Shown here piece by piece: positions 1 to 61,191 of a stretch of 64,000 nucleotides of DNA (positions are counted from its first letter, which is position 1; the number at the start of each line of letters is the position of its first letter). Both the position numbers and the translations under genes were made by a program. Location: the NCBI RefSeq assembly GCF_009914755.1, contig NC_060936.1; one strand, written 5' to 3'. The notes beneath the pieces are model-generated. The model worked only from the letters and a program-made list of their open reading frames with translations, was not told where the DNA came from and did not search any database. The DNA comes from the human T2T-CHM13v2.0 reference genome, Homo sapiens.

Positions 1-3000
1 TTTACAAAACGTTTCTTGAAAAGTAATCAATGTCAAAACATGTTGAGTTCACTTGGGAAAAAAAAGCACATCATCTACATTGTTAACACAAAGCTTGCGT
101 TTACCTTTCAGGACTAGATATTCACATTTTCTGTGTCGGCCTGTTATGTTTGCAATTATTTCTTCCGATATTTGACAAGAGGTGTCTTTGAAAACTGCTC
201 TTAGTTAATACATGTTAAGTTCAGTGAATAAAACAGCACAGCATACATTATTTATGGGCCATATCTTGCCTTTAGCATTCAGGACTGTATAAAGCATATC
301 TCCCTGGAAGCACTAACTGGGCTGCGAAATTTTTTTTTTAGCTTGTACTAAACGTCTTTTTAAAAAGTGATCAATGTCAAAATATGTTGGATTCAATGAA
401 AGAAAACCACTTCATCTAGGTTTTTGACACAAAGCTTGCATTTATTTATTGCAGCTGCATACTCGCATGTTGTGTGTGAACCTACTCTGCTCAGAATTGT
501 GTTGTCTGAGATTTAACAAGTTGTTTCTTTAGAAACTGCTCTTCCTTAATACATGTTGAATTTAGTGAAAGAAAAGGGCACATCATAAATTATTTGTGTG
601 CCATACATTGCTTTTAGCATTTAGGGCTCTATATGCACATCTTTCTGGAAGCAGTAACTGTGCTCGGAAATATTTTTTCTGGGCTTGTACAAAACGTGTT
701 TTTGAAAAGTGATCAATGTCAAAACATGTTGAATTTAGTGAAAGAAAACAGCACATATTCTTTGTTTTTGCACAAACCTTGAGTTTACTTTTCAGCTCTG
801 GAATGCATATGTTCTGTGTCAGCCTACTGTGGTCAGAATTGTGTTTTCTGAGATTTGACAAGCTGTGTCTTTGAAAACTGCTCTTGGTTAATACATATTG
901 AACTCAGTAAAAAAGCACATCTTACATTATTTGTGCACCATATCTTGCTTTTAACATTTGGGAATATATGCACATATCTTCCTGGAAGCACTAAGAGCAT
1001 TGAAATGTTTTACTTTGAGATTCTACAAAAAATGTTTTTGAAAAGTGATCAATGACAAAACATGTTGAGTTCAGTGAAAAAACCCAGCACATCATCTAGT
1101 TGTCTAACATAAATCTTGTGTTTACCTTTTAGGGCTAGATATTAGCATTTTCTGTGTAAGCCTACTATGGTCACAATAGTGTTTTCTGAGATTTGACAAG
1201 ATGTCTTTTTGAAAACTGGTCTTGGTTAATAAATATTGAATTCACTGAAAGAACAAAGTACATCATACATTATTTGTATGTCATATCTTGCTTTTAGCAT
1301 TTAGTGGTGTGTATGCATATCTTCCTGGAAGTGCTAACTGGGCTCCAAAATGTAATTTTCTGAGCTTGTAGAAAACGTGTTATTTAAAGGTGATAAATTT
1401 CAAAATACCCTGAATTCAGTGAGAGAAAACAACACATCATCTAGGTTTTTGGGATAAAGTTTGCATTTAACTTTTAGGGATAAATACTCTCATGTTCTTT
1501 GTGAGCCTACTGTGCTCAGAATTGTGTTTTCTGAGATTTGCCAAGAAGTGTCTTCAAAAACTGCTCTTAGTTAATACATTTTGAATTCAGTGAAAGAAAA
1601 TAGCACATCATACATTATTGGTGTGCCATATCTTGCTTTTAGCATTTAGGGCTCTATATGCATATCTTCCTGGAAGCACGAACTAGGCTCTGAATGTTGT
1701 TCTCCTCAGCTTGTACAAAACATTTTCTTGAGAAGTGATCAATGTCAAAACATGTTGAGTTTAGTGAAAGAAAACAGCACATCATTTTGTTTTTTAACAA
1801 AACACTTGTGTTTACCTTGTAGGGCTAGATATTGACATTTTTCTGGGTGAGCCCACGATGCTCAGAATTGTGTTTTCTGAGATTTGACAAGATGTGTCTT
1901 TGAAAACTGCTCTTAGTTAATGCATGTTGAATTCAGTGAAAGAAAACAGCACATCATACATTATTTGTGTGCCATATTTAGCATTTAGGATTGTATATGC
2001 ATATCTTTCTGGAAGAACTAACTGGGCTTTAAAATGTTTTTTTGGGGAGCTTGTACAGAACGTGCTTTTGGAAGGTGATCAACGTCAAAACATGGTGAGT
2101 TCAAAGAAAAAAAACACAGCACATCATCTACATTTTTGGCGCAAAGCTTGTATTTACCTTTAAGTGCTAGATACATTTTCTGTGTGGGCCTACTATGCTC
2201 AAAATTGTTTCTTCTGAGATTTGAGAAGAAGGGTCTTTGAAAACTGCTCTCAGTTTATACATGTTTAATTCAGTGAAAAAAGACAGCACTTCATACATTA
2301 TTTGTGTGTCATATATTGCTTTAAGTATTTAGGGTGTCTATGCATATGTTCCTGGAAGCTCTAACTGGGCTCCCAAATGTTATTTTCTGAGTGTGTACAA
2401 AACATATTTTTAAAAAGTGATCAATGTCAAAACATGTTGAATTTAGTGAAAGAAAACTGCGTATCATCTAGGTTTTTGGCACAAAGCTTGCATGTACTTT
2501 TTATGCCTAGATACTTGCATGTTTCGTGTGGGTGAACTGTGCTCATAATTGTGTTTTCTGAGATTTGACAAGTTGTGTCTTTTAAAATTGCTCTTAATTA
2601 ATACGTGTTGAGTTCAGAGAAAGAAAACAGCACATCATACATTATCTGTGTGCCATATATTGCTATTAGCATTTATGACTATATATGCATCTCTTCCTGG
2701 AAGTGCTAACTGGGCTTTAACATTTTTTGTGTGTGTGCTTGTACAAAACATGATTTCGAAATGTGACCAATGCCAAAACATGTATAGTTCAGTGAAAGAA
2801 AACAAAGCATCATCTAGGTTTTTGACACAAAGCTTGCATTTGCCGTTTAGGTCTAGATATTCGCATCTTCTGTGTGGGCCTGTTATGCTCACAATTGAGT
2901 TTTCTGAGATTAAAGAAGATGTGCCTTTCAAAACTGCTCTTAGTTAATACATGTTAAATTCAATAAAAGACAATATTATGAGGTCAAGAGATCGAGACCA

Positions 3001-3563
3001 TCCTGGCCAACATGGTGAAACCATGTTTTGTGCCATATCTTGCTTTTAGCATTTAGGTCTCTATATGTATATCTTCCTGGAAGTGCAAACTGGGCTTCAA
3101 AATGTTTTTTTTTTTTTCTGAGCTTCTACAAAACATGTTTTTTTAAAGTGACCAATGTGAAAACATGTTTATTTCAGTGAAAGGAAACAGCACATCACCT
3201 TGGTTTTGGGCCAAACCTTGTGTTTACTTTTTAGGACTAGATACTTACATTACCTGTGGGTGGTTACTATGCTCACAATTTTTTCTTCTGAGATTTGACA
3301 AGATGTGTCCTTGAAAACTGCTCTTAGTTAATGCATGTTGAATTCAGGGAAAGAAAACAGCACATCATACATTATTTTTGTGCCATATCTTGCTTTAAGT
3401 ATTTAGGGCTGTATGTGCATATCTTCCTGGAAGTGCTAACCGGGCTCTAGAATGTTATTTTTTGACAGTGTACAAAATGTGTTTTTGAAAAGCGTCAATG
3501 TCAAAACATGTTGAATTCAGTGAAAGAAAACAGCACATCATCCAGGTTTTTGGCACAAAGCTT
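1..3563 (-). repeat. Degenerate tandem satellite, ~343-bp unit = dimer of two ~171-bp monomers, related to alpha satellite (~10 units, truncated by window start)
   Basis: AAGTGATCAATGTCAAAACATGTTG-like motif recurs at ~21, 365, 707, 1043, 1388, 1733, 2074, 2416, 2761, 3147, 3490. CATGTTGAATTCAGTGAAAGAAAACAGCACATCAT occurs twice per unit ~172 bp apart. The reverse complement (tcactgaattcaac...agagcagttttcaaagacac...ttgtcaaatct...aatatct) is colinear with alpha consensus TCACAGAGTTGAAC...AGAGCAGTTTTGAAACACTC...TTGTAGAATCT...AATATCT. Confidence 0.85.
2980..3022 (+). mobile_element. 43-bp internal Alu fragment (AluSc-type) embedded in the satellite
   Basis: GAGGTCAAGAGATCGAGACCATCCTGGCCAACATGGTGAAACC; no poly-A and no TSD. 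Confidence 0.9.
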
Positions 3564-10298: not shown

Positions 10299-11499
10299 TG
10301 AGAGGTGACAAAGTGCTAGCAGCCCTCGCTCGCTCTCGGCGCCTGCCGGCGCCTCCTCGGCCTCAGCGTTCCCTGTGGCCGCGCTCGTGGAGCCCTTCAG
10401 CCGGCCTCTGTGCACTCTGCTCCAGGGGAAGTGTGAAGAGAGAGGCGCGGGAGGGAGCCCGGGCTGGGCGCCGCGCTCGAGGGCAGGCGCGGGTTCCAGG
10501 TGAGCGCGGCTCCGCAAGCCCCGCACTCAGGCGTGGCCGGCCTCACCTGCTAGGCTTGATAGGAAGCTGAATTCCCTGCGTAGACCGCCGTTCCCTCTTC
10601 ACGGGATCGTTGGCCAAGATAGCAGGTCTCCGTCTCTTTCTGCTTCCCCTCTTTCCCTCTTGATTGTCTGGGAGGAGCTCCCTCTGGGCTGCTGGAGTGC
10701 CCGGGCTAGGTGTCGCAAAGTCCCGCTGCCCTGCCAATGCCAGTGAGAGATGAAGCCGGCTGGGCTTCTGGGACGGATGGGGACTTGGAGAACTTTTCTG
10801 TCTAGCTAAAAGATTGTAAACGCACCAATCAGCACTGTGTCTAGCTAAAGGTTTGTAAACGCACCAGTCAGCGCTCTGTGTCTAGCTAATCAGGTAGGGG
10901 ACTTGGAGAACTTTTGTGTCTAGCTAAAGGTTTGTAAACGCACCAATCAGCACTCTGTCAAAACGGACCACTCAGCACTCTGTAAAATGGACCGATCAGC
11001 TCTCTGTAAAATGGACCAGTCAGCATTATGTGGGTGGGGCCAAATAAGGGAATAAAGGCAGGCCACCGGGAGCCAGCTGCGGCAACCCGCTCTGGTCTCC
11101 TTCCACGGTGTGGAAGCTTTGTTCTTTCGCTCTTCACAATAAATCTTGCTGCTGCTCACTCTTTGGGTCCGCGTCACCTTTATGAGCTGTAGCACTCCCT
11201 GCAAAGGTCTGCAGCTTCACTTCTGAGGCCAGCGAGACCACAAACCCACCAGAAGGAACGAACAACTCCAGACACGCTGCCTTTAAGAGCTGCAACACTC
11301 ACCGTGAAGGTCTGCAGCTTCATTCCTGAAGTCAGCGAGACCACGAACCCACCAGAAGGAAGAAACTCTGGACACATCTGAACATCTGAAGGAACAAACT
11401 CTGGACACACCATCTTTAAGAACTATAACACTCACCGCGAGGGTCTGTCGCTTCATTCTTGAAATCGGCTAGACCAAGAACCCACCAATTCCAGACACA
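10299..11499 (+). mobile_element. Solo ERV9 LTR (LTR12 family, LTR12B-like) inserted in L1 ORF2
   Basis: Begins TGAGAGGTGAC and ends AATTCCAGACACA; 4-bp TSD AAAT; CCAATCAGC repeats; L1 sequence resumes exactly. Confidence 0.95.
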
Positions 11500-13289: not shown

Positions 13290-14920
13290 ATATTTATAGT
13301 ATATGGCATGCCGTTTTGATATACAAATTATATATACATTAAATATATACATTATATATGTGTGTGTATATACACACACACACACACCCCTTGTGAAATT
13401 ATTAAATCAAGCTGGTTGACATATCCATCACCTTACATACATATCATTATTTTGGTGTGGTGAGAACATTTAAAAATCTATTCTCTTAGCAATTTTCAAG
13501 TATATAATAAGTTATTATTAGCTACAGTAGCCTTGCTGTACAATAGATTTCCGGAACTTATTCATCTTGTCTAATTGAAGCTTTGTACCCCTTGACCAAC
13601 ATCTCCCCTTCTCTCCCCTACCTGCCCCCCGACCCTCACAACCACCATTCTACTCTCTGCTTCTATAAGTTCAGTTACTTTAATGAATATTAAGCCCCAG
13701 GACATTACTGCACACTACTGTAGACTTTACAAACACTATACACTTAGGCTGGCTACACTAAATTTATAAAAAGTTTTCTTTCAATTATAAACTTAGCTTA
13801 CTGTAACTTTTTTATTTTATAAATTTTTAATTTTTTTGACTTTTGATTCTTTTGTAATAATACTTAGCTTAAAACACAAGCACATTGTATAGCTGTACAA
13901 AAATACTTTCTCATATATCCTTATTCTGTAAACTTTTTTTCTATTTACATTTTATTTTTAACTTTCAATTTTTTTTATTGAAAACTAAGACTCAAACACA
14001 CACAAATTAGCCTAGGCTTACACAGGGTCAGGATAATCAATATCACTGTCTCCCAACTCTGCAAATTGCCCCACTGGAAGTTCTTCAAGGGCAATAACAT
14101 GCATGGAGCTGTTATCTCCTGTGATGACAACGCTTGCTTCTGGAATACCTCCTGAAGGACATGCCTGAGGCTGTTTTACAATTAATTTTAAAAAATAAGT
14201 AGAAGTAAACCCCAAATAACAATAAATAGTATAGTAAATACATAAACCAGTAATGCAGTCATTTATTATTGAGCATTATGTACTGTACATAATTGCATGT
14301 GCTAGACTTTTGTTATGATGGACAGAACAGTAGGTTTGTTAACATCAGCATCACCATAAACATGTAAGTAATGCATTGCACTACAATATTGAGACAGCTA
14401 TGATGTCACTAGGTGATACAAAATTATCAGCTCCACAATAATCTTATGCATCCACTGTCATATAAAACAGTCTGTCATTGACCAAAATGTCATAATGTGG
14501 CAAATGACTGTGCATCACATTGTCTGTACTCATTCATCCATTAGTGGACACTTTGTTGATTCCATATCTCAGCTAGTGTGAATAATGTATTGAACATGGG
14601 CGTTCAGATATCTCTTTGAGATACTGATTTTATTTCCTTTGGCTATATGCCCAGTAATGGGATTTCTGGATCATGTGATGGCTCTATTTGCAATCTTTTG
14701 AGGAAACTTCACATTATTTTCCATAATGGCTGTAGTAATTTACATTCCCACCAATGTGTGCATAGGTTCCCTTCTGCCACATCCTCGCCAATACTTACTA
14801 TGTTTAGTCTTTTTGATAATGGCCATTTTAATGAGTGTGAGGTGATATTGTGGTTTAATTTGCTTTTCCCTGATGACTTGTGATGTTGGGCATTTTTCCA
14901 TGTACCTGTCGGTAATTTGT
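13290..14920 (-). mobile_element. L1MA-type 3' fragment split by Tigger1
   Basis: Antisense L1MA 3'UTR motifs at 13390-13680 continuing at 14510-14920. Confidence 0.7.
13700..14510 (+). mobile_element. Tigger1 DNA transposon fragment
   Basis: CACTACTGTAGACTTTA...GGGTCAGGATAATCAATATCACTG...ATGACTG terminal. Confidence 0.85.
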
Positions 14921-15560
14921 ATTAGACAAAACATACTTTAAATCAAAACTTTTACAATAGAAATAGAGGACATTATATATTAATAAAAGGGCCAATTCAT
15001 ACATAAGATATAACAATTATAAATATATACACACCAAATAATGGGGTCCTAAAACATATGAGGCAAACAATGAATGAACTGAAGTAAGAAATAGACAGTT
15101 CTACAATAACAGTTGCTGATTTCAACATTCCACCTTCAGTGATGGGTAGAACAGCCAGACAGAAGGTCAATAAAGAAATAGAGGACTTGAACAACATTAA
15201 AAACCAGCTAGACCTAACAGACCTCTCTAGAACGTGCCACCCAACAACTTCAGAATACACATTTTTTCAAGTGCACATGGAACATTTTCCAGAATGAGGC
15301 ATGTTAGGCTACAAAAGAAGTTTGAACAAATTCATAAAGATTGAAATTATATGAATTATATTCTCCAAACGCAATGAAAGGAGGTAGGAATCAATACCAG
15401 AAGCAAAACTAGTTAATTAAAAAAGCATGCAGACATTAAACAATACACTCTTAAACAACCGATGGGTCAAAGAAAAAAAATTATAAGGGAAATAAGTCAT
15501 TCTGGGAATGAATGAAAATGAAAACATAAAATACCAAAACATATGGAATGCTTATGGAAC
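14921..15560 (+). mobile_element. Old L1M ORF2 endonuclease-region fragment
   Basis: Degenerate EN coding sequence (ATATATACACACCAAAT, GATTTCAACATTCCACCTTCA, GAATACACATTTTTTCAAGTGCACATGG). Confidence 0.8.
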
Positions 15561-16289
15561 AACTGTGAGTATGCTCAACAGAGGGAGTATAGGTGGTGCA
15601 CGAGCATGCAGGATGGGAAAGAAAGTGTGTACATATTTCCATAGATGCTGTGCGTGACTCCACATTTCTCTGTTGAGAGAATGCACCAGAATACATGTGT
15701 CTCAGCAGGTGGGGAAAAGGGCCAAGAGAAGGGCATCTGTAGGCTCACTTGTGATAAAAGAGTGTGTGTGTGTTGGCCGTGGGGCAGAGCGTGGACGAGA
15801 GAGACCGAGATGAGGTATAAGAGTGTGTGTGAGAGAGGCTGGAGGAGAGAGTGTGAAAGTGTATACAAGACCCTGTGACAAAGGGTGTGAGTGTGTGCGT
15901 GTGTGTGTTAGAAAAAGAGTGGGTATGTCTCTTTAAGGGAGAAAAGGCTAGAGACAAAGGAAATGTGTTTTTGAGAAAGTGAATTCCTTTATTTAATAGT
16001 TGTGTGTGTCACAGAGGAAGAGGTCTCCCATGGGAAGGGATCCCAGCCATGTCCCATCAAACCTAACCTGCTCCTGCCCTGACCCCAAACCCCAGCCCCC
16101 AGGGCCCCATCTGCCCCATCGGCCTCTCTGGCTGTACCATAGACCTCAAAGTCAAGAAAAGGTCTTTTCGGCTTCCTTCCCTAGCGCCCTAGAGCTGTGC
16201 TACACCATTTGGTAACAATTAGTTGCATGTAGTTTGTTAAATGAAAATGAATTAAGATTAGAAATTCAGTCCTTAATTATGCTAAGGGA

Positions 16290-16748
16290 ACTAGGACAGA
16301 TGCAGAAAGAAAAAAATATTGCATGATCTCACATGTGAAATCTAAAAACGCAAAAGTCAGTTATACAGAAATAGTGAATAAAACAGGGCTGATGGGCCGG
16401 AGGTGGGGAGAGGGAATGGAGAGACGTAGGTCACAGGATGCAAAGTAGCAGCTATGGATGACGAATAAGTCTAGAGATCTAATGCACAGCAAGAGCACTA
16501 CAGGGAATATGAGACGAACAAGTCTAGAGATCTAATGCACAACAGGAGTACTACAGGGAATACGACTGCACACATTTGAGATGCCTGCTAACTCTTAGCT
16601 GCTCTTGCCACAACCCACACCCACCACCAAAAAAAAAGGTGGTAACTGTAAGATGACAGATACTTTAATTTGCTTCACTATAGTAACATTTCACTAGATG
16701 TATCCCATAACATAATTTAAATATACATGATAGCATTTATTTAAAAAA
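16290..16748 (+). mobile_element. L1MA 3' end with ~53-bp internal tandem duplication, inside a MER3/33-type hAT remnant
   Basis: L1MA 3'UTR motifs; GACGAA(T/C)AAGTCTAGAGATCTAATGCACA...ACTACAGGGAATA occurs twice. Confidence 0.65.
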
Positions 16749-17060
16749 CTTCAGCTCCTCATCTGCACTATCCACATTTCAAGTGCTGAACCGAGATGTG
16801 TAGCTGTTTACATCAGTTTGTGCAGCACAGAGAACGTTTCCATATTTCTCAACATTAGAGTTGATACCCTGTCAGAGACCTTTGATTCTCTGTTAAAAAA
16901 AATTAAATTAAAATCCCTGATGCTCTCCACCCCACCCCACACATACCCCACTTCAGCAGAGGAGCTCCAGAGACCTTCAGCATCAGAGCCAGGGCTGGAA
17001 TCCTGTTGGTTGGGGGCATTTTTCTGACTTCAGCTCCTCTGGACAAAGATGCTCCATTCA

Positions 17061-17061
<1 letters not shown>

Positions 17062-17105
<44 letters not shown>
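17062..17105. repeat. (CA)n microsatellite
   Basis: Seen directly. Confidence 0.95.
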
Positions 17106-17107
<2 letters not shown>

Positions 17108-17783
17108 CTCCCCTTCATTCCAGATGTGGTCCAGAGCTGTCCACGCACAGTCTGATGACGCAGATCTCAAGAGATGTTTTCTATTAAAACAGCGAATGAA
17201 AGAAAGAATGGAAAAAATAGGGTAATTACACGTATTCATTCATTCACCTTGAGATCAGCATCCATTTGTGGCAGGGTGATTGCCAGTGAGGTAGGCATCT
17301 TGGGGCCCCATCTTTTAATATATAATAGGGAAAACATGCCATTACTTGCCAGCTCCTATTGAGAGCAACTGTGGTCAGAACCCTCCAGAAAGAGGAAGAG
17401 GAGATGCGGGGTCCTTGGTGCAGTAACATGCTTCTTAGATACTAAGAGAAAAGAAAGAAGAAGCTGAGGAAATGATACAGTTTCTAGGCCCTTACTGACA
17501 TGGTGACTTTTCTCTGGGTACTTATCTTGTCTCTTCCAATTTCAATCACCTCTTAAAGGCCCCACCTCTCAATACTGCCACACTGGAGATTAAGTCCGCA
17601 CGTGAAATATGGGGGACACATTCACACAATCAGTACATAGTATTCATTTGAACTATAAATATGCAAAATAAATATAGTAATTTCAGTTTTCATTTGAAAG
17701 ATAAAGAATGATCTCTTTTTTTTTCTTTTGCTTTCACAGAGGAAGGCATTGCAACAAAAAAGAAGCCTTAAAAGGAAATCCAT

Positions 17784-25700: not shown

Positions 25701-26666
25701 TAGTTATCTAAAAGTTGAAAATGAAGCTGTTCTTCTATAAATTAAGTAGACATTAATCACTTAAATTAACCTAGCCTCTTCCATGATATCTGTAGATTCA
25801 TTATTCCTTTTGCTCAAGATCTGAGTCTCTCTGAGTCATCTGATGCCATGAGGAATCATATTTAAAGAGGACCAGAACTAGGCCTCTCTTTAAAAAAGTA
25901 TATAGAAAGAGAAAAGTTATTTAATCTGTGATAAAATGTGAGATGGGAAAAATAGCAAGATGATATTAGAATCATTTGAATTTTGAAACGAAACTACAAA
26001 TATCTCAGTAGGGGATTTTTATACACAGAAGGGGATTAAAAAGAAAAGACTCAAGGCTGGTTCAAGGGAAAGAAAAGTACGATTTACTTCACTGTTAATG
26101 ATTTCTACTTGAAAACATAAGCAGCAGAGAAAACATTCCCCGTTCTTCAACTCTGGCTTGTATCCTAACACTATGAAGTGCCTAATACCCAGAGTTTAAT
26201 GGTCATTTTTCACAATTTAAATTATTCCTACTATTTATCAAAAATTTTTAGGATAAAAGATGAACAATTTACTTCCAAAGATGGAAGTAAATAAAAACTC
26301 TCTAAAATTTTCTCATTGAGATGCATGCACCTATTACCTTTGAGTCTGATGTATATAAATTTATAGAACTTTGTAAAATTGCAAATGCAATCACACTGAT
26401 AATCTATTTTAGGATTCTAAGCAAAGCTTGATGTGTATAGTATATATCAGCAAAACCATTGCTACTAAAAAATGCTGGAATAATCCCTAAAATAGGCTTA
26501 TAATATTAGTAGGTTAGGTCTAATCTAATCTAAAGTGATGGCAATTTAATCTTATCTTCTTTTTCAAGGTAAATATTATCAGGATGAAGGGTTTTACTAA
26601 GAATATTGTGGACTGCAGATTTATCACCAATAAAAACCTCATTCCCGATATAATTAAATAAACGCC

Positions 26667-26763
26667 TGATTAGGTTAGAGGGGGTGGCAGGGTGTGATCA
26701 TGGAGGATTAGAGGGAGTGGAAGGGTGTGATCATGGAGGGTTGGGCAATCTTGCCAATAAAAG
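26667..26763 (+). promoter_or_regulatory. Putative promoter of RFPL unit 1: DUX4-type motif, 33-bp tandem repeat, TATA-like AATAAAA
   Basis: TGATTAGGTTA (rc TAACCTAATCA) at 26667-26677; AATAAAA at 26756-26762; same layout as the unit 2 promoter. Confidence 0.65.
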
Positions 26764-26785
26764 GCTCTCCTATGCCCTTTCCCCA

Positions 26786-29504
<2,719 letters not shown>

Positions 29505-30336
29505 ACCCCCACTGCATAGAAACAGGATCGGGAAATTAAATTACTTGGTGGGTAGACCTAGGAAGTTTCTGTTGGGTATACATATTTTACAAAATCATAG
29601 CAGAAAAATATAGACCATTCCATGATGTAGTTAACTTCATAGATTCATTAGAATAGAAGCTGAGTTTTAAATATTGATTATTGTCACCATCAAACGTGTT
29701 GAGTTTTGTGTTTATATTTTGTTTCCTAATGATATGTTTTGTATTCTTAATTTCCAAATGCTTTACCTTTTATTTCTGTAAGTTCGGCTTTATGTATTAT
29801 GGAGTTTATAAGTTAAATAAATATTTGGCTGTAACCAAATGGATTATGTGAGTTTCTAAATAATAGGGGTGCAACACTTTTTATTCATAGTGCAATGTGT
29901 GGGTGGGGGGGTGGGCAGGGGTGTGTGTGTGTGTGTATTTGAACAAAACAAATGTGGATAAATACCTGTGTCTTATCCAGCACTGAACAACTTTCCACCA
30001 CCACAGCTCCGTGTAGCTAACATTGTCTTGGACATGAGATTGTCTACATTAACAATGGTAATTCCCCCACTGTAGAATGTACTGCTTTGTCTCGAGTGCA
30101 CTCCTGGTAATACCTGACTCTGATCAGCCGATCCTTCCTCCTTCCGTTATCCCTGTGGGGTCCTCAGTGCTGTGCTCCTCTGGCTGGCACAGCTCTGGTC
30201 ACTCTGGAGATGCATGCTGGGGGCCAGGCAGTCATGCTCTTATCACAAGTCAGTTCCCTGCAGGAGGGATCTACTGAAACTAGTGCTGGCTTTTCAAGTG
30301 TTCTTTGCATTTTAAACCATTGGCAACCTTTACATA

Positions 30337-41209: not shown

Positions 41210-42685
41210 CATTATATACATCACTATATATCTCTATATATCACAATATCTATCATTATGTATCACTATATCACTATATATCACAATATACATTACAATA
41301 TATATCACAATACAGATGGCTATATATCCTGACTTATCACTATGTATCTCTCTACATACCATTATATACCACTATATATATCACTATATATATAACTATA
41401 CATCACTATATATATCACTATTGTATTAATCAGGGTTCTCTAGAGGGACAGACTTAATAGGATAGATGTATATATAAAGGAGAGTTTATATTAAGGAGTA
41501 TCGACTCACACGATCACAAGGTAAAGTCCCACAGTAGGCTGTCTGCAAGCTGAGGAGCCAGGAAGCCAGTTTGAGTCCCAAGACCTCAAAAGTAGGGAAG
41601 CCGATAGTGCACCCTTCAGTGTGTGATTGAAGGTCTGAGGGCCCCTGGCAAACCACTGGTGTAAGTCCAAGAGTCCAAAAGCTGAATAATTTGGAGTCTG
41701 ATGATCGAGGGCAGGAAGCGTCCAGCATGGGGGAAAGATGAAGGCTAGAAGACTAAGCCAGTCTAGTCCTTCCATGTTCTGCCTGCTTTTATCCTGGCCA
41801 CATGGGCAGCTAATTAGATTGCACCCACCCAGGTTGAGGGTGGGTCTGTCTTTCCCAGTCCACTGACTCAAATGTTAATCTCCTTTGGCAGCACCCTCAC
41901 AGACACACTCAGGAATGATACTTGCACCCTTCAATCAAGTTGACACTCAATATTAACCATCACAACTATATAACACAATCTGTATCAGTTTATGTCACTT
42001 TATATCCCTACATATCACTATGTATCTCACTATATGTCACTGTATACCACTATGTATATCACTATATACTATTATAAATCACTGCATATCTCACTATATA
42101 ATATATATTACTATATATTCCTACATATCACTATATATCTCACTACATATCACCATATACCACTATGTCTATGACTGTATATTATTATACATCACTATGT
42201 ATCTCACTATATATTCCTACATATCACTATATAACTCACTACATATCATTATTGTATACCACTATGTATACCACTATAAATATCATTACATATCACTATA
42301 TACCACAATATGTATCAGTGTATATCATGACATATATCATGATACTGCTACATATCACAATATATATCATTATATATCTGCATACCACTATATGTATCAC
42401 TATATATTATTATACATCTCTATACATCTCACCATATCTCACTATATGTCACAATATCCCTACATATCACTCTATGTCTCACTATATATCATTGTATACC
42501 ACTATGTATCTCACCATATGCATTATTATACATCACTATACGTCTCATTATATATCACAATATATATCACTATATCCATACATACCATCACATATCTCAC
42601 TACATATCACTGTATACCAATATGCATATTATTATATATATTATTATACCTTACTATATATCTCACCATATACCACTATGTATAA
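41210..42685. repeat. Degenerate AT-rich simple-repeat array built from TATATCAC/TATACCAC variants, split by MLT2A
   Basis: Seen directly at 41210-41421 and 41965-42685. Confidence 0.9.
41422..41964 (-). mobile_element. MLT2A (HERV-L) solo LTR
   Basis: rc begins TGTGATGGTTAATATTGAGTGTCAACTTGATTG; perfect 5-bp TSD ACTAT. Confidence 0.93.
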
Positions 42686-44712: not shown

Positions 44713-45740
44713 TTTTTAAAAAAAATGCCTTTTTGGGTAAAAGCCAAATAAGACAACCAAAGCCATGTATCACTACTGTGCTATGAAAATGAGTCTCAGT
44801 AGTTCTTTAATATAAACATTCCTATGTAGAAGTAAGTAATGCAAACGGCCCTGTTCCAAAGTCAAAAGGAATTTGACTTTTGCATTATTTTTAAAAAATA
44901 ATTAAAATCAGAGTTATTTTTAAATTCTTATTCTAAAAATAGGGAAGAGAAATTGCCTAAAAAATACAGAGGTGGATAAAAGAAGAGAGATTAAAATTTC
45001 AAATGGATTTGGGAAGTTAAGTGCTGATTAAAGGAGAGATATCAGTTTGTAAGGGATTATCCCTGGGCCTAATTGTTTGAGGATGTGCAGGCTTGTAGGA
45101 AATGGGGAGGACAGACAGGCTGTATTAGAATGCCTGTGTCAGGAGGAGAATGGAAGGCTCTTGAAGACAAGGGTGGTTGCTTGTGTTTCTGTTGAATCCC
45201 CACTAAATGTAATTTTTCTTTTGGAGACATTGGTGTATGGGCACAGTTCTCAGCAGAGTGCTAATGTCTGGGGAAAATGGTTAAAAACTGAAAAATTACC
45301 TTGGCAGTCTGAGGACAAAGCCACAAAACCATAAATTGTTTGGGGGCTTTCTTCAGCTTCACACCTACCAGAAAACTTCTTACCTTTAGAGTTTTCTTAT
45401 CTATCAAAGGATAAGGTTGCAGTGGTTATTGCCGTGAAAGCTCCCCAAATCTAATTTGCTTTTATCCTTCCCGCTGATCTTTCTCCTGCAATTAAAAATG
45501 ATGAACTGTTTCTGGATTTTGAATTAGGGATTTTTCGTTTCTGTATAATTCTACCTCTGATGTATTTTGCATTTTCTCTGGGTATATGCCATTAAAGGAG
45601 ATTTGGATTGCAATTTGGCTGCTTCTTAGGAGAGCAGACAGAATATCACACCATTTTGTTTTTTCTAGTTGCAGCTTTTCATTGATGAAAGCAAAGCTTT
45701 GAGTTTGTGAAGTTCTGACATAATTCTTGCTCTTCTGCAG

Positions 45741-45939
<199 letters not shown>

Positions 45940-46781
45940 ATGAGAAATTTGACCTTCCATTCTGTTAGACATCTTCTGGTAGTCTCTCTATTTTTTTTCA
46001 TAATTGATTGACTTTAGAGATTGACCACTCACCAAGTACTGTTGGATTGATGGGGCCATTAAATTCTGATGTAGGTGAGGTTGAGTTCCACATGACTTGC
46101 TAACCCCATTCGTTTTTCTCTAGCAGGAAATCATTAGATAATGGTGACATCTGTTCTGGGTGTGTCCTCTATGGATGAAAAAGGTTACCATAATGATGCT
46201 GTGAGCACAGGTAGGCAGAGGAATTGTATGATTTAATCCAGAATAATCCACTTTTCATAAAAGTGGAATACAGTTTTAAAAAGTTATGCTTGTGCTCCAA
46301 AGTAAAGTTGTAAAAACAATTATATTTTTAATTGGGTGGAAATTTGTAAGATAACGTTCTCTTCCTTATGAAGTCATGAAGGCTGAGACTTCTTGTTCTT
46401 TTCCAATAGCAAATGGGATGAGAGCACAAGAAAGTATTTCAAAACAAATACAGATTTCAAGTCTAGACATAGGATTCAGCATAGGATTTACTAAACAGTA
46501 TTAACAAGTGGCAGAAATAAAGCGTCTTTACTGAAAGTGGTTCTGTGGGTTCTTCAATTTCAGTTGGCTTCCAAGCCATACTCCTTCCTTCCTTCCTTTA
46601 TCCTCCCAGAGAGCCACTCCAAGGTGGGAGGTTAGATAGGAATTCCGTACATTTGCTGACCAATCACGAATACTGCAGATCAAAATTTGCACTTACTTTA
46701 TTAGCAAATTCTGGAATTGCAAATAATGAAGAAAAAAAAAGCTATGAAGAGGGCCTAGAAACAGTTGTTTTTTTAGTTAGC

Positions 46782-47164
46782 TGATGTGGTTTGGATTTGT
46801 GTCCCTGTCTAAATCTCATATTGAATTGTAATCCCCAGTGTTGGAGGAGGGACCTGGTGGGAGGAGATTGGATGGTGGGGTGGATTTTCCCCTTGCTGTT
46901 CTTGTGATAGTGAGTGAGTTCTCGCGAGATCTGGTTGTTTGAAAGTGTGTAGCACCTCCCTCCTCTCTCTCTTTCTCCTGCTCCAGCCATGTAGGCCATC
47001 CCTGCTTCCCTTTCACCTTCCACCATGATTGTAAGTTTCCTGAGGCCTCCCCAGCCATGCTTGCTGTACAGCCTGTGGAATCATGAGCCAATTACACCTC
47101 TTTTCTTTATAAATTACCCAGTCTTGGGTAGCTCCTTATAGCAATGTCAGAATGGACTGATACA
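46782..47164 (+). mobile_element. MSTA-type MaLR solo LTR
   Basis: TGATGTGGTTTGGATTTGTGTCCC...GGACTGATACA; TSD TTAGC. Confidence 0.92.
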
Positions 47165-47409
47165 TTAGCTTTTAGGAGAAATATGAGTTTGGTAAGTCCT
47201 GAGCTCCCGTGATAAGGACTTGGTACTGGTGAGGATGCCGATGTTGAGTTGCATGACAGCTGTTTCCACTCTGCTTAAAAACACTCAGCTCCCTCCTAAG
47301 CCTGAGCCCCATATATTAAGGGTACATCTCATCATCATGGACCATGTGATTCTGAGAGTGGTTACAATAAAGTGAATTTCTGTTAAAGGATTGTTTCCCA
47401 TTGAATTTT

Positions 47410-50112
47410 TTTCTTTAATTCTCCTTTTATTTTGGAAAAATTTGAACATATACAAAAGTGGAAATACTATAATGAACCACCACGTACCATTAATCAGCTT
47501 CAACACTATCAAGTCCAGTGTTTCCTTTCTCTGCCACTTCCAACTCGATTACTCTGAAGTAAATCCCACAGATATCACTTCATTCATAATTAAGTTATGT
47601 ACCCCTATAATGCAAACTCTTTCCTTTTATTTACCAATTTGAAAATAATGAATCTGTTCCCAAGTATCCTACAAAGATGATTACTGAGTTCTTTTAAGTA
47701 TTATTTTGAACTCGTTAAACATATCTGATGCAGGATGTGCAAACTGTCTATCTTTTGCCAACAGGAGCCTTTTCATGTTGCTTGAGTTCTTCTGACATGG
47801 CCCTAGTAATCCTTGCTAGCTTCCTTAATCTTTCATATGACCTTGTTGATGTGACCATGTTCCCACATTATTTGAACATTTCCTGACCCAGTTCTGGAAT
47901 CAACGACCTCTCCAAAGAGCCTGGAGTTCCTTTTAGAGAGAATGGTATGTAGACACAATCAACAAAATCTTCCTCCCATGCCCAACACCTCAGTTCTCAG
48001 TAACACCAACATAATTACTCATTTGCTTTATCCCCCAATACACACACAACCATCTCAAAATAACAGCAACAGTCTAGTAATAACATGTTTATTGAAAATA
48101 CTAACACTGTTACGTTCTTTTCATTCTCAGGGTATATTCCACTAGAGATGTATTGCCCTATGTTTTGAAGTCACCTAGAAGAGTTCTTAGTGTGGGTATA
48201 TGACTACATCAAGAGTTTTTTACTTTTGATGATTAGGGACTGCTTCTTAAAACTTATTTTAAAACTGATTTTAGTATCTTAAAATACTCACACAGTTCCG
48301 AAGTCACATTTACATAAACAAGGCATATTTGAAGTCCAGGTTTCATCCTTGACCCTCCTACTCTAGGCTCTTCCTTCTCCTAAAGGTAAGCATTTTCATT
48401 CTTTATCCTTTTCATCTTATTGGTATGAACACATGTGTGTCCCCTTCCAGGCAGTCTTCAGTAATGTCACATGTTCCCATGACACCTGTATTGTACTCTT
48501 ATCAGTCATTACATGGAATTTATCTTCCATAAGTATTATTTGGGGTCCTCCATGAGACTGTGAGCATGACCACTGGAGGGTTGCTTCCCATTATATCCAT
48601 ATTATCAAGCACAAGGTCAGGCACAGAGTAAGACTCAAACATGTTTTGGAATGTATGACTGGTATGAACTACAAACCAGTAAGCTGATGTTTTCATTTTG
48701 AGTCTATAAATCTAATGTTTATGGTGGCTTTGTGTATGGCTCAAGGCTCAAATTGTAAAACTTAACATTATGTGACCAAAGCAAGTTATACCCAGAACCT
48801 CAATTTCCTCACCTTCAAAACGGGGCAGAGTTTCTGACTTACTGGTCTACTCTCAGGATTTTAATTAGCTCATGCAAAAACAGCCCTTTATATAAGGTTA
48901 AGTGCTGGATAAATGTTGGCTACTATAATAAAATAAGCCTCTAAGATACTTGGTCAGCACAGGCACTACCCAAGAGTATGCACTGCAGATAAACTGACAA
49001 AATTGTGTATCTAAAACTGGCCAGATGAAAGAGAAACTTTTAAGGGGCCCTTCTGCATGCCCGACACTGTGCTAGGCACTCACACTATCCCGACCTGAGA
49101 AAAAGATCTGGGACCCAGAGGAACTTACCAAGCCTCCAGCATCTTGTGTAGCCCTACTCGTGGGACCATCTGGATACCCGCCTCCTCTTGTCTTTATAGG
49201 GAGCAGAACACACCTGATATATGTCAGGAAACAAAGTCCAGGAAGTATATTTTCACCTGAGGCAATCCTTGAAAATTGTAGGCTCCAGCCTCCAAAGTGA
49301 GTCTTCCTCTCAGTACCTCTCTTCTAGACACATTGAGACCTTTCTTCCAAGCATTAAGTTTAACCACTTAATGAATGAAGTCCTGAAACTGCTTAACCAT
49401 GCTCCCTATAATATCTGAATAATCTTCCTTTTCCGCAACCTCAGGCATAATCTCATCTTGTTTCTATTACAATTTCAAATTCTGGAAAAAGGAAGTTGTG
49501 GTCTGGAGTTGTAAGGTCCAAATGATCTGGTTGTGCACAAGCCTGCTTATGTCCCAATCTCCAGTCTAGGGTCTGATGCTCCTTGCTGCAGTAATACGCT
49601 TTGTGGCATCTGGAGCAAGTTTTGGGGCCTAAACAGCCACAAACACTGCAGAGATGAGCACCAGACTTAAGTTGGAGATACACCGATTCTCCTGTTTCTG
49701 GGGAAGGATTCTCAGAAGGTGGCTCATATGAGTAAAAATCATTTTTCCTGGGTAGCTGATTCCTAGAAACTCGCAGGGCGGCACAGCACGGCGGCTCGTG
49801 GCAGCAGAAGAGGAAGATGCCGCGGTGGAAGGCGTCTTCGCGGCCGGGCAGCGACGCGTACACCTGCCGCCGGAAGAAGAGCGACGGTCGCACAGCTCTC
49901 AGGCCGGGGGCCGGAGCCCCGGCAGCCCGGCCGCGCCCATCCACGCCCAGCCACGCCCAGCCACGTTGGCCGCCCGCCCAGCCTGCTGGGAAACTGCTCG
50001 CTGCGCATTCGCCCGCCCGCGCCGACTTGGCGATGGCCAGCTACACAGGTCCGGCGGGGGCGGCAGCCATGTGGGGCGCGGGCTGGCGTGGGGAGCAGCC
50101 CACAGCTGGGCC
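47410..50112 (-). pseudogene. PDCD2: PDCD2 retrocopy: spliced exons 1-3 plus ~2 kb of intron-3-derived 3'UTR; disrupted CDS 50070-49368
   Basis: [43 protein letters not shown] finger [38 protein letters not shown] are contiguous without introns; ends ...GSMVKQFQDFIH* like the short isoform; TSD TCCCATTGAA(T/C)TTT at 47396 and 50113. Symbol refers to the parent gene. Confidence 0.93.
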
Positions 50113-50335
50113 TCCCATTGAACTTTGATGTGTTTTTCTTTGGAAAACTTTCAACTCTCTTGTATTTTTCTCTCCAAGATACTCCAAGTATATTTTCACC
50201 TGTGAGGCAATATCTGAAAATTGTAGGCTACAGCCTCCAAAGTGAGTCTTCCTCTCAGTACCTCTCTTCTGGACACACTGAGCCCTTTCTTTAAACTCTG
50301 ATTTTTACTTTCTTGTCCGACTTGTTATAACATGA

Positions 50336-50724
<389 letters not shown>

Positions 50725-60243: not shown

Positions 60244-61191
60244 TGTGTCCGGAATTGGTTCCTTCTGGTGGGTTCTTGGTCTGCTGACTTCTAGAATGAA
60301 GCCACGGACCCTCGTGGTGAGTGTTACAGTTCTTAAAGATGGTGTGTCCGGAGTTTGTTCCTTCAGATGTTCAGATGTATCCGGAGTTTCTTCCTTCCAG
60401 TGGGTTCGTGGTCTCGCTGAGTTCAGGAGTGAAGTCGCAGACCTTCACAGTGAGTGTTATAGCTCTTAAAGGTGAGGCATCCAGAGTTGTTTGTTTCTCC
60501 CGGTGGGTTCGTGGTCTCGCAGACTTCAGGAATGAAACCACAGACCCTGCGGTGAGTGTTATAGCTCATAAAGGTAGTGCAGACCCAAACAGTGAGCAGC
60601 AGCAAGATTTACTGTGAAGAGTGAAAGAACAAAGCTTCCACAGCGTGGAAGGGGACCCAAGTGGGTTGCCGGGCTGGCTCGGGTGGCCAGCTTTTATTCC
60701 CTTATTTGGCCCCACCCACGTCCTGCTGATTGCTCCATTTTACAGAGCGCTGATTCGTCCATTTAAAGAGTGCTGATTGGTCTGTTTTACAGAGTGCTGA
60801 TTGGTGCATTTACAAACCTTTAGCTAGACCACAGGGTGCTGATTGGTGTGTTTTTACAGAGTGCTGATTGGTGCGTTTACAAACCTTTAGCTAGACATAG
60901 AGTGCTGATTGGTGTGTTTTTACAGAGTGCTGATTGGTGCGTTTACAAACTTTTAGCTAGACCACAGGGTGTTGATTGGTGTGTTTTTACAGAGTGCTGA
61001 TTGGTGCGTTTACAAACCTTTAGCTAGACACAGCGCTGATTGGTGTGTTTTTACAGAGTGCTGATTGGTGCGTTTACAAACCTTTAGCTAGACACAGAGT
61101 GCTGATTGGTGCATTTACAATCCTCTAACTAGACAGAAAAGTTCTCCAAGTCCCCACTCCACCCAGGAAGTCCAGGTGGCTTCACCTCTCA
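60244..61191 (-). mobile_element. Solo ERV9 LTR (LTR12 family, LTR12F/LTR12_-like)
   Basis: rc begins TGAGAGGTGAAGCC and ends AATTCCGGACACA; 11 CCAATC boxes at 60775-61109; imperfect TSD CTGG/CTGA. Confidence 0.95.

What the first reader, a model, noticed from the sequence alone, without database searches (positions are those of the whole stretch)
1..3563. Ancient dimeric alpha-satellite-related array: possible relic of a dead centromere
Seen: ~343-bp period made of two distinct ~171-bp monomers. Copies are strongly diverged from each other, there is no CENP-B box at the equivalent position, and similarity to modern alpha consensus is only patchy. Known: ~340-bp dimeric organisation characterises monkey alpha satellites, and old alphoid layers mark former centromeres. 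Inference: this is a very old alphoid family lying in ordinary-looking euchromatin next to a duplication mosaic.
Basis: partly seen in the sequence, partly recalled or inferred. Interest (0 to 1): 0.72.

Follow-up and report, generated by a model that had tools for sequence, protein, structure and literature searches.

The report
Ancient alpha-satellite scrap at chromosome breakpoint
A 5.7-kb patch of very old centromere-type repeat DNA sits mid-arm on human chromosome 12, inside the published primate-specific 12/22 chromosome break, and shares a worn edge with a sister patch on chromosome 13, so it is likely a copied scrap of an early primate centromere of an already described kind rather than proof that a centromere once stood here.

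Summary
Window 7-3563 holds 10.3 dimers of about 344 bp (monomers about 171 and 173 bp; copies 78% alike; the two monomer types 58% alike), with no CENP-B box. The array runs 2.1 kb further left (5,657 bp in all). It is alphoid: colinear over the whole unit, 71% to other off-centromere islands, 65% to distal Xp layers, 57-59% to active arrays. The same family lies at 13q12 (consensus 98-99% identical) and forms its own clade. Altemose et al. already describe such pieces (SF13-18, far from centromeres, presumed defunct centromeres). This is likely SF18, the only two-monomer family of that group, but their locus table could not be read. Two additions: (1) the array lies in the primate-specific ASCL4-WSCD2 synteny break, 22 kb from an old copy of the chr22 RFPL locus; (2) its 673-bp left edge is a colinear, 83%-identical twin of one chr13 stretch, so the two arrays share one physical ancestor (about 46-56 Myr on a neutral clock). 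Best reading: an inert, transferred fragment. A centromere in place is possible but not shown. Known kind, modest new context.

The parts
1..3563 (-). Core dimeric alphoid array inside the window: 10 full A+B dimers of about 344 bp (7-3474) and a truncated A monomer (3475-3563). Strand is the orientation in which the CENP-B box of modern alpha satellite reads forward. The array goes on 2.1 kb left of the window, to chr12:107,815,907: about 2.5 more dimers (107,817,157-107,818,006); an internally deleted Alu piece (about 107,817,040-107,817,156); a degenerate edge of four monomers (107,815,907-107,817,036) that is the twin of C13:23,731,438-23,732,114 and holds a full Alu with a 17-bp target-site duplication (107,816,096-107,816,535); then the poly(A) end of an L1-like element (107,815,545-107,815,906). 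Element names by eye.
2975..3026 (+). About 50-bp Alu fragment inside the ninth B monomer (93-100% identical to many dispersed copies)
25815..30068 (+). Context: old genomic duplicate of the chr22 RFPL loci, extending well beyond the annotated pseudogene LOC390358 (72-79% to C22:29.90, 32.65 and 32.82 Mb; the last lies about 35 kb from RtcB)

Best explanation
This is a likely inert 5.7-kb fragment of a very old dimeric alpha-satellite family, likely SF18 of the published SF13-18 group, and it was likely copied to this spot from the array that survives at 13q12 (or from a common source) in an early primate, around the time the 12/22 rearrangement broke this interval. Steps. (1) Shown: alternating A/B monomers homologous to alpha satellite, without CENP-B or pJalpha sites. 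(2) Shown: chr12 and chr13 monomers mix within one clade and share a consensus. Inferred: the family was once homogenised as one pool, as centromeric satellite is. (3) Shown: the chr12 edge and one chr13 stretch descend from one physical copy. Inferred: a segment of at least 0.7 kb moved between the chromosomes when the dimer core was still nearly uniform or had just stopped being homogenised. (4) Published: the site lies in a primate-specific synteny break. Inferred: insertion at or near that break, alongside the RFPL duplicate. (5) Inferred: since then it has decayed neutrally and taken L1 and Alu insertions; it is predicted to have no centromere function today. My odds: alphoid and ancient 0.97; already catalogued among SF13-18 0.85; SF18 in particular 0.7; transferred fragment rather than a centromere in place about 0.55.
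For: Homology: the window's dimer profile hits Xp pericentromeric samples down to E 1.4e-10; a profile from 44 distal Xp monomers gives 17 hits in the array, 6 of 17 at E<1e-3, best 1.2e-9, against best E 4 in 100 shuffles; consensus alignment z 6-9 for active arrays, 10-13 for distal Xp, 12-18 for off-centromere islands. Family: 85 of 425 monomers form a clade (FastTree support 1.0, stem 0.185) holding only chr12, chr13 and chr20 monomers; chr12 vs chr13 consensus 98% (A) and 99% (B); identity within chr12 0.77/0.81, within chr13 0.77/0.80, between 0.77/0.80. Shared edge: 83% over 668 aligned columns; BLAST 81.5% to the twin, 72.8% to a consensus concatemer and at most 72% (over 400 bases or more) to any other natural place tested; the three edge pairs share 16, 19 and 20 non-consensus sites, the top 3 of 1,566 chr12 x chr13 pairs (mean 1.7, sd 1.7). 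Isolation: no alphoid hit outside the array in 94 kb with three profiles, bar one E 0.98 hit. The chr13 array is larger (about 10 kb), has inverted blocks and more divergent monomers, and has a second island of the family at C13:20.48 Mb. Break: Kemkemer et al. list chr12 106.67-107.03 Mb, upstream gene ASCL4, broken in 6 of 6 species. Known kind.
Against: Direction of transfer is not shown. The core dimers show no diagonal excess against chr13 (0.77-0.83 on every in-phase offset), so only the edge is proved to be a copy. A shared edge is also expected if one centromere seeded another. The missing 5' target-site copy of the L1 suggests DNA was lost on the left, so the array may once have been larger. 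Within-type identity (77-81%) is higher than in the grey layer (71%) that Shepelev et al. date to 40-58 Myr, which is odd for a family called older; the age is therefore uncertain (about 30-75 Myr). A profile from 95 active monomers gives no hit at E<1e-3 (0 of 9 hits; best 0.04). The SF18 label rests on elimination, not on the published HMMs. The breakpoint coincidence was noticed after the fact.
Confidence: 0.55

Rival explanations
1. Remnant of a centromere that really functioned here, on the ancestral 12a/22a chromosome next to its 12/22 junction, and was lost at or after the translocation (the reading of the first reader, and the presumption of Altemose et al. for SF13-18).
For: A uniform run of about 12.5 dimers of a family shared between chromosomes; position in a primate-specific break with old duplications nearby; signs of loss at the left end; published presumption for the class.
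Against: Only 5.7 kb; no further alphoid layer in 28 kb left and 60 kb right; the edge is a twin of a chr13 stretch; no paper that I read places an ancestral centromere at 12q23.3 (one direct search, 2 irrelevant papers by their listing).
Confidence: 0.3
2. The chr12 array is the older source and the chr13 stretch the copy, or both are scraps of a third, vanished array; the position in the 12/22 break is chance.
For: The shared edge has no polarity. Small pieces of related families are scattered on many arms, so dispersal is common. About 3% chance that one of four family sites falls in a six-species break is not negligible after the fact.
Against: chr13 holds satellite on both sides of the shared stretch, chr12 on one side only; proximal 13q is near the ancestral centromere of that chromosome (Cardone et al., passages).
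Confidence: 0.12
3. An unrelated AT-rich 344-bp satellite that resembles alpha satellite by chance, or a recent segmental duplicate of pericentromeric DNA.
For: Active-array profile gives no significant hit; with my lenient gap scores shuffled sequences already reach 50% identity.
Against: Same unit length, same phase, graded identity through intermediate families and significant profile hits. The best chr12-chr13 monomer pair in the core is 88%; in the visible part the only flank matches to chr13 were 72-74% hits in masked repeat stretches and short Alu-sized hits (that output was cut).
Confidence: 0.03

Closest known systems
Alpha-satellite suprachromosomal families SF13-SF18, in particular SF18 (monomers Pa and Ta); Altemose et al. 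preprint 10.1101/2021.07.12.452052 (passages read), monomer list in PMC11062924 (passage read)
   Same: Small piece of highly diverged alphoid DNA far from the centromere in the same assembly; two monomer classes, as listed for SF18 alone among SF13-18; the most distant family from active arrays among 22 samples.
   Different: No difference shown. Whether this locus is in their Table S5 could not be read. The shared chr12/chr13 edge and the 12/22 break are not in the passages that I could search.
SF8 olive-green layer (Oa/Na = H1/H2), the known ancient dimeric layer; Shepelev et al. 2009, PMC2729386 (parts 1-3 of 6 read); Miga and Alexandrov 2021, PMC9549924 (passages, supplement part 1)
   Same: Dimeric, about 172-bp monomers, about 79% identity within a monomer type, no CENP-B box.
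   Different: SF8 flanks active centromeres. The dimeric Xp samples that I take for SF8 (inferred, not classified) are only 51-60% identical to A and B; their two classes are 84-85% alike against 70% here; they keep pJalpha-like sites (13 and 5) where this array has none.
Off-centromere monomeric alphoid islands at C3:128.38, C7:65.60, C22:22.55 and C13:22.63 Mb (found; family names unknown)
   Same: Nearest relatives: 69-72% to monomer A; no CENP-B or pJalpha sites; small and away from active arrays.
   Different: Monomeric (lag-1 identity about equal to lag-2) and outside the A/B clade.
New World monkey dimeric alpha satellite (S3S4; named in PMC2729386)
   Different: Sequence relation not tested; no monkey sequence was available.

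Membership tests
Alpha satellite (alphoid) | Tandem monomers of about 171-172 bp | tested here: met
   A 169-172 bp, B 168-175 bp
Alpha satellite (alphoid) | Full-length sequence homology to pericentromeric alpha monomers | tested here: met
   Colinear consensus alignment, z 6-18; E 1.2e-9 with a distal Xp profile, best of 100 shuffles E 4; weak against active arrays alone (best E 0.04). The Xp monomers were cut with a profile seeded from the window, a mild circularity; one search does not share it.
SF13-18 group | Small piece far from the centromere | tested here: met
   5,657 bp at chr12:107.82 Mb; no alphoid hit in the flanks examined
SF13-18 group | More distant from modern alpha than the pericentromeric layers | tested here: met
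   57-59% to active-array consensus, against 70-90% for all Xp layers sampled
SF18 (Pa/Ta) | Two monomer classes | tested here: met
   A-B 58% against 77-79% within type; strict alternation in the core
SF18 (Pa/Ta) | Best score to the Pa and Ta profiles of HumAS-HMMER; locus listed in Altemose Table S5 | not testable with these tools
   Profiles not held; the Science version is not held; preprint supplements are closed
SF8 (Oa/Na) | Monomers mix with the olive-green dimeric layer | tested here: not met
   51-60% to the dimeric Xp samples; separate clade. The samples' identity as SF8 is inferred.
Active or young alpha (SF1-3, SF5) | CENP-B boxes and homogeneous higher-order repeats | tested here: not met
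   0 CENP-B cores; 78% identity between dimers
Dead centromere in place | Ancestral centromere mapped to the orthologous position in outgroup primates | not testable with these tools
   No primate genomes are held; no paper found
Dead centromere in place | Nested layers of other alphoid ages around the site | tested here: not met
   Only a four-monomer degenerate edge, which is shared with chr13; nothing further in 94 kb

The most novel reading that the evidence does not exclude
The array is what is left of a short-lived centromere of a stem-simian 12/22 chromosome, seeded by DNA from the chromosome 13 centromere (hence the shared edge). The break that created human chromosomes 12 and 22 went through or beside it, so the array both marks and dates that translocation and preserves the earliest alpha-satellite centromere family.
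Probability: 0.15. Interest if true: 0.72.

Novelty: already known. Interest (0 to 1): 0.38.

Why it matters
The class is described, with the presumption that each piece marks a long-dead centromere. This locus offers a direct test of that presumption. A physical twin on chr13 shows that at least part of such a piece moved between chromosomes, and the position in the 12/22 break ties the family to a datable karyotype event in early primates, the period in which alpha satellite is thought to have arisen (none is reported in tarsiers and lemurs). If the centromere-in-place reading held, it would place an ancestral primate centromere and link it to the translocation that built two human chromosomes. 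If the transfer reading holds, off-centromere alphoid islands should not be read as centromere markers one by one.

Tried and rejected
Recent segmental duplication from a pericentromere: rejected (best core pair between chr12 and chr13 is 88%). SF8 identity: rejected as far as the Xp samples stand for it. Orthology of core dimers between chr12 and chr13: no diagonal signal. L1 3' transduction of the array: not supported; no poly(A) at the right end, and the chr13 twin continues as satellite where the L1 sits. Looking for chr22 homology between the array and the RFPL block (window 13303-17750) and right of it (44750-50400): none among 40 candidates scored in each, the lists being filled by dispersed repeats, so the exact break was not placed. 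chr13 array as a breakpoint site: no row for it in the Kemkemer table, whose chr13 rows begin at 25.52 Mb. Literature: 10 searches listed no paper that names this locus; the library lacks most subscription papers, and Altemose Table S5 and Supplemental Section 1, the Logsdon supplement and T2T browser tracks, where it is most likely listed, could not be seen. Five of the larger ancient islands (C5:24.0, C1:103.9, C16:38.46, C19:30.2, C23:57.47 Mb) and seven single short hits were not sampled, and six were sampled at 2 kb only, so the tree is not a full survey of SF13-18.

Full report
Observation. The repeat is real. TRF gives period 345 (8.7 copies, 76% matches) at 3-2970 and period 173 at 3025-3541, and 8-mer spacings peak near 172, 343, 515, 685 and 1,025. 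Ten full dimers and an 89-bp partial fill 7-3563, with mean pairwise identity 78% over 45 pairs. The halves are two monomer types, A (169-172 bp) and B (168-175 bp), 77% and 79% alike within type and 58% between types. No CENP-B core (pattern recalled) occurs at up to 2 mismatches, and no pJalpha site (pattern), whereas three active-array samples gave 16, 16 and 9 cores. A roughly 50-bp Alu fragment interrupts the ninth B monomer.

Extent. The array continues 2.1 kb left of the window: chr12:107,815,907-107,821,563, 5,657 bp. It holds about 12.5 regular dimers and a degenerate left edge of four monomers, with a full Alu (17-bp target-site duplication) and a deleted Alu piece, and it abuts the poly(A) end of an L1-like element whose best other copies are 88-90% identical (element names by eye). 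Three profiles found nothing alphoid in the rest of 94 kb, apart from one E 0.98 hit.

Is it alpha satellite? Yes. The window's dimer profile hits 7 of 20 chrX samples, best E 1.4e-10. An iterated monomer profile cut 425 monomers in one phase from 22 samples (kept: at least 60% of the profile and 155-185 bp, so the Alu-bearing monomer and fragments were dropped). Consensus sequences align colinearly over the unit. Identity of monomer A falls in steps: 69-72% to islands at C3:128.38, C7:65.60, C13:22.63 and C22:22.55 Mb; 63-65% to the two most distal Xp samples and two similar islands; 59-61% to the other Xp layers; 57-59% to active arrays. With my lenient gap scores shuffles reach 50%, and z-scores are 6-18. 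A profile of 44 distal Xp monomers hits the array at E 1.2e-9 (6 of 17 hits below 1e-3; best of 100 shuffles E 4), while a profile of 95 active monomers gives none below 1e-3.

Relatives. A genome search with two dimers (36 matches from 12 candidates scored, a lower bound) found the family at C13:23.726-23.736 Mb (up to 81%), C13:20.485 Mb (79%) and, more weakly, C20:4.776, C3:128.39 and C6:57.2 and 61.45 Mb. In a FastTree tree 85 of 425 monomers, all from chr12, chr13 and chr20, form one clade (support 1.0, stem 0.185) in which chr12 and chr13 monomers mix. Consensus A and B are 98% and 99% identical between the chromosomes, and identities within and between arrays are equal. That is the pattern of a family once homogenised across chromosomes and then left to decay (inference, after Shepelev et al.).

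A shared physical ancestor. The four edge monomers of chr12 pair in order with four consecutive chr13 monomers at 81, 76, 82 and 86%. With the Alu set aside, 673 bp align to C13:23,731,438-23,732,114 at 83% over 668 columns and share private changes. The first three pairs share 16, 19 and 20 non-consensus sites, the top 3 of 1,566 chr12 x chr13 pairs (mean 1.7, sd 1.7). The core shows no such diagonal. So at least 0.7 kb was copied between the two sites. At the 0.17-0.21% per Myr that Shepelev et al. give for long-dead arrays the split dates to 46-56 Myr; the core's distance from its consensus gives 57-75 Myr at 0.2% per Myr, an upper bound, because that paper finds intra-array clocks about twice too old. 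Against a simple 'oldest family' picture, within-type identity (77-81%) is higher than the 71% published for the grey layer; an array that left the centromere early and escaped the proposed burst of mutation would look like this (inference).

Position. Kemkemer et al. (PMC2681463; passages and the whole of supplement file 1) list a break at chr12 106.67-107.03 Mb with ASCL4 as upstream gene, broken in 6 of 6 species, the only such row on chr12, and describe it as the border between ancestral 12a-22a and 12b-22b. The downstream gene is given by accession only; that it is WSCD2 is recalled, and fits a WSC domain at C12:108.178 Mb and the Wscd2-Piwil3-Sgsm1 order in hamster, with Wscd2 next to Sgsm1 in mouse and rat (passages; a Piwi gene lies at C22:25.18 Mb). 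ASCL4 ends 78 kb left of the window (hub annotation), so the array is inside the interval. Window 25,815-30,068 is a 72-79% duplicate of three chr22 loci, one about 35 kb from RtcB, in the same orientation. That Ascl4 neighbours Rtcb in mouse is recalled, not checked. My hand tally of 58 six-species rows (centromere rows left out) covers 22.5 Mb, about 0.8% of the autosomes, so about 3% for one of four family sites; this was noticed after the fact. The chr13 array lies about 50 kb from a VIT-domain gene at C13:23.677 Mb (PARP4 recalled), in proximal 13q, the end where Cardone et al. place the ancestral centromere (passages); it has no row in the Kemkemer table.

Mechanism. Most likely (0.55) a fragment spanning the edge of an old dimeric array was copied to this interval in an early primate and has been inert since. 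Reasons: small size, no layers, satellite on both sides of the shared stretch on chr13 but one side on chr12, and a date that could match the rearrangement. A centromere in place (0.3) stays open, because seeding of one centromere by another would also copy an edge, and the left end seems to have lost DNA (no 5' target-site copy at the L1's left end). Reverse direction or a third source: 0.12.

What is known. [quoted passage not shown] Logsdon et al. (one passage) list SF18 as Pa and Ta, the only two-monomer family of the six. The array therefore works like, and very probably is, a catalogued member; the HMM test and the table were out of reach. It is not SF8, the other old dimer, so far as my dimeric Xp samples represent it (51-60%). 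Ten searches listed no paper naming this locus, the shared edge or the breakpoint link, but the unseen supplements may.

Verdict. Observation confirmed; interpretation partly supported; kind already known. The shared edge and the breakpoint position make the 'dead centromere' presumption testable with primate assemblies. Interest 0.38.

Noticed in passing
G000:C13:23,726,100-23,736,200 (L014, L015): About 10-kb array of the same family with inverted blocks, divergent monomer runs and several inserted repeats; the richest copy and a better candidate for a relic centromere than the chr12 array.
   Followed up: partly
G000:C3:128,382,200-128,396,600 (L018, L019): About 14-kb monomeric ancient alphoid array at 3q21, 94-96% consensus identity to islands at C7:65.60 and C22:22.55 Mb; among the nearest outside relatives of the dimer family.
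   Followed up: partly
G000:C20:4,776,370-4,776,750 (L017): Two monomers inside the family's clade but intermediate between A and B (the better one 76% and 73%), possibly near the ancestor of both types.
   Followed up: partly
G000:C6:57,216,850-57,217,090 and C6:61,451,070-61,451,320 (L020, L021): Single ancient alphoid pieces of about 245 bp on both sides of the chr6 centromere, probably the two copies of the duplication that Altemose et al. describe. Several other lone hits of 190-290 bp occur on arms.
   Followed up: no
window 45134-47409: Old inverted duplicate (77-83%) of C12:108.675-108.677 Mb, 0.8 Mb distal.
   Followed up: no
window 47405-50110: The PDCD2-like copy is longer than annotated: 2.1 kb at 90% to C6:171.955-171.957 Mb plus two pieces that skip gaps of about 315 and 554 bp, which looks like a retrocopy of a long transcript.
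   Followed up: no
L011:7907 and L011:8079: The L1 and the full Alu both sit at the same A-rich motif in successive monomers, which resembles the L1 endonuclease target (recalled), so this satellite may offer a target in every monomer.
   Followed up: no
window 41213-42684: AT-rich degenerate minisatellite with periods 10-22, 82 and 118.
   Followed up: no
window 10818-11487 and 60266-60919: Inverted pair, 83% over 675 bp, with internal 24-67-bp tandem repeats; looks like two copies of one LTR family (name not tested).
   Followed up: no
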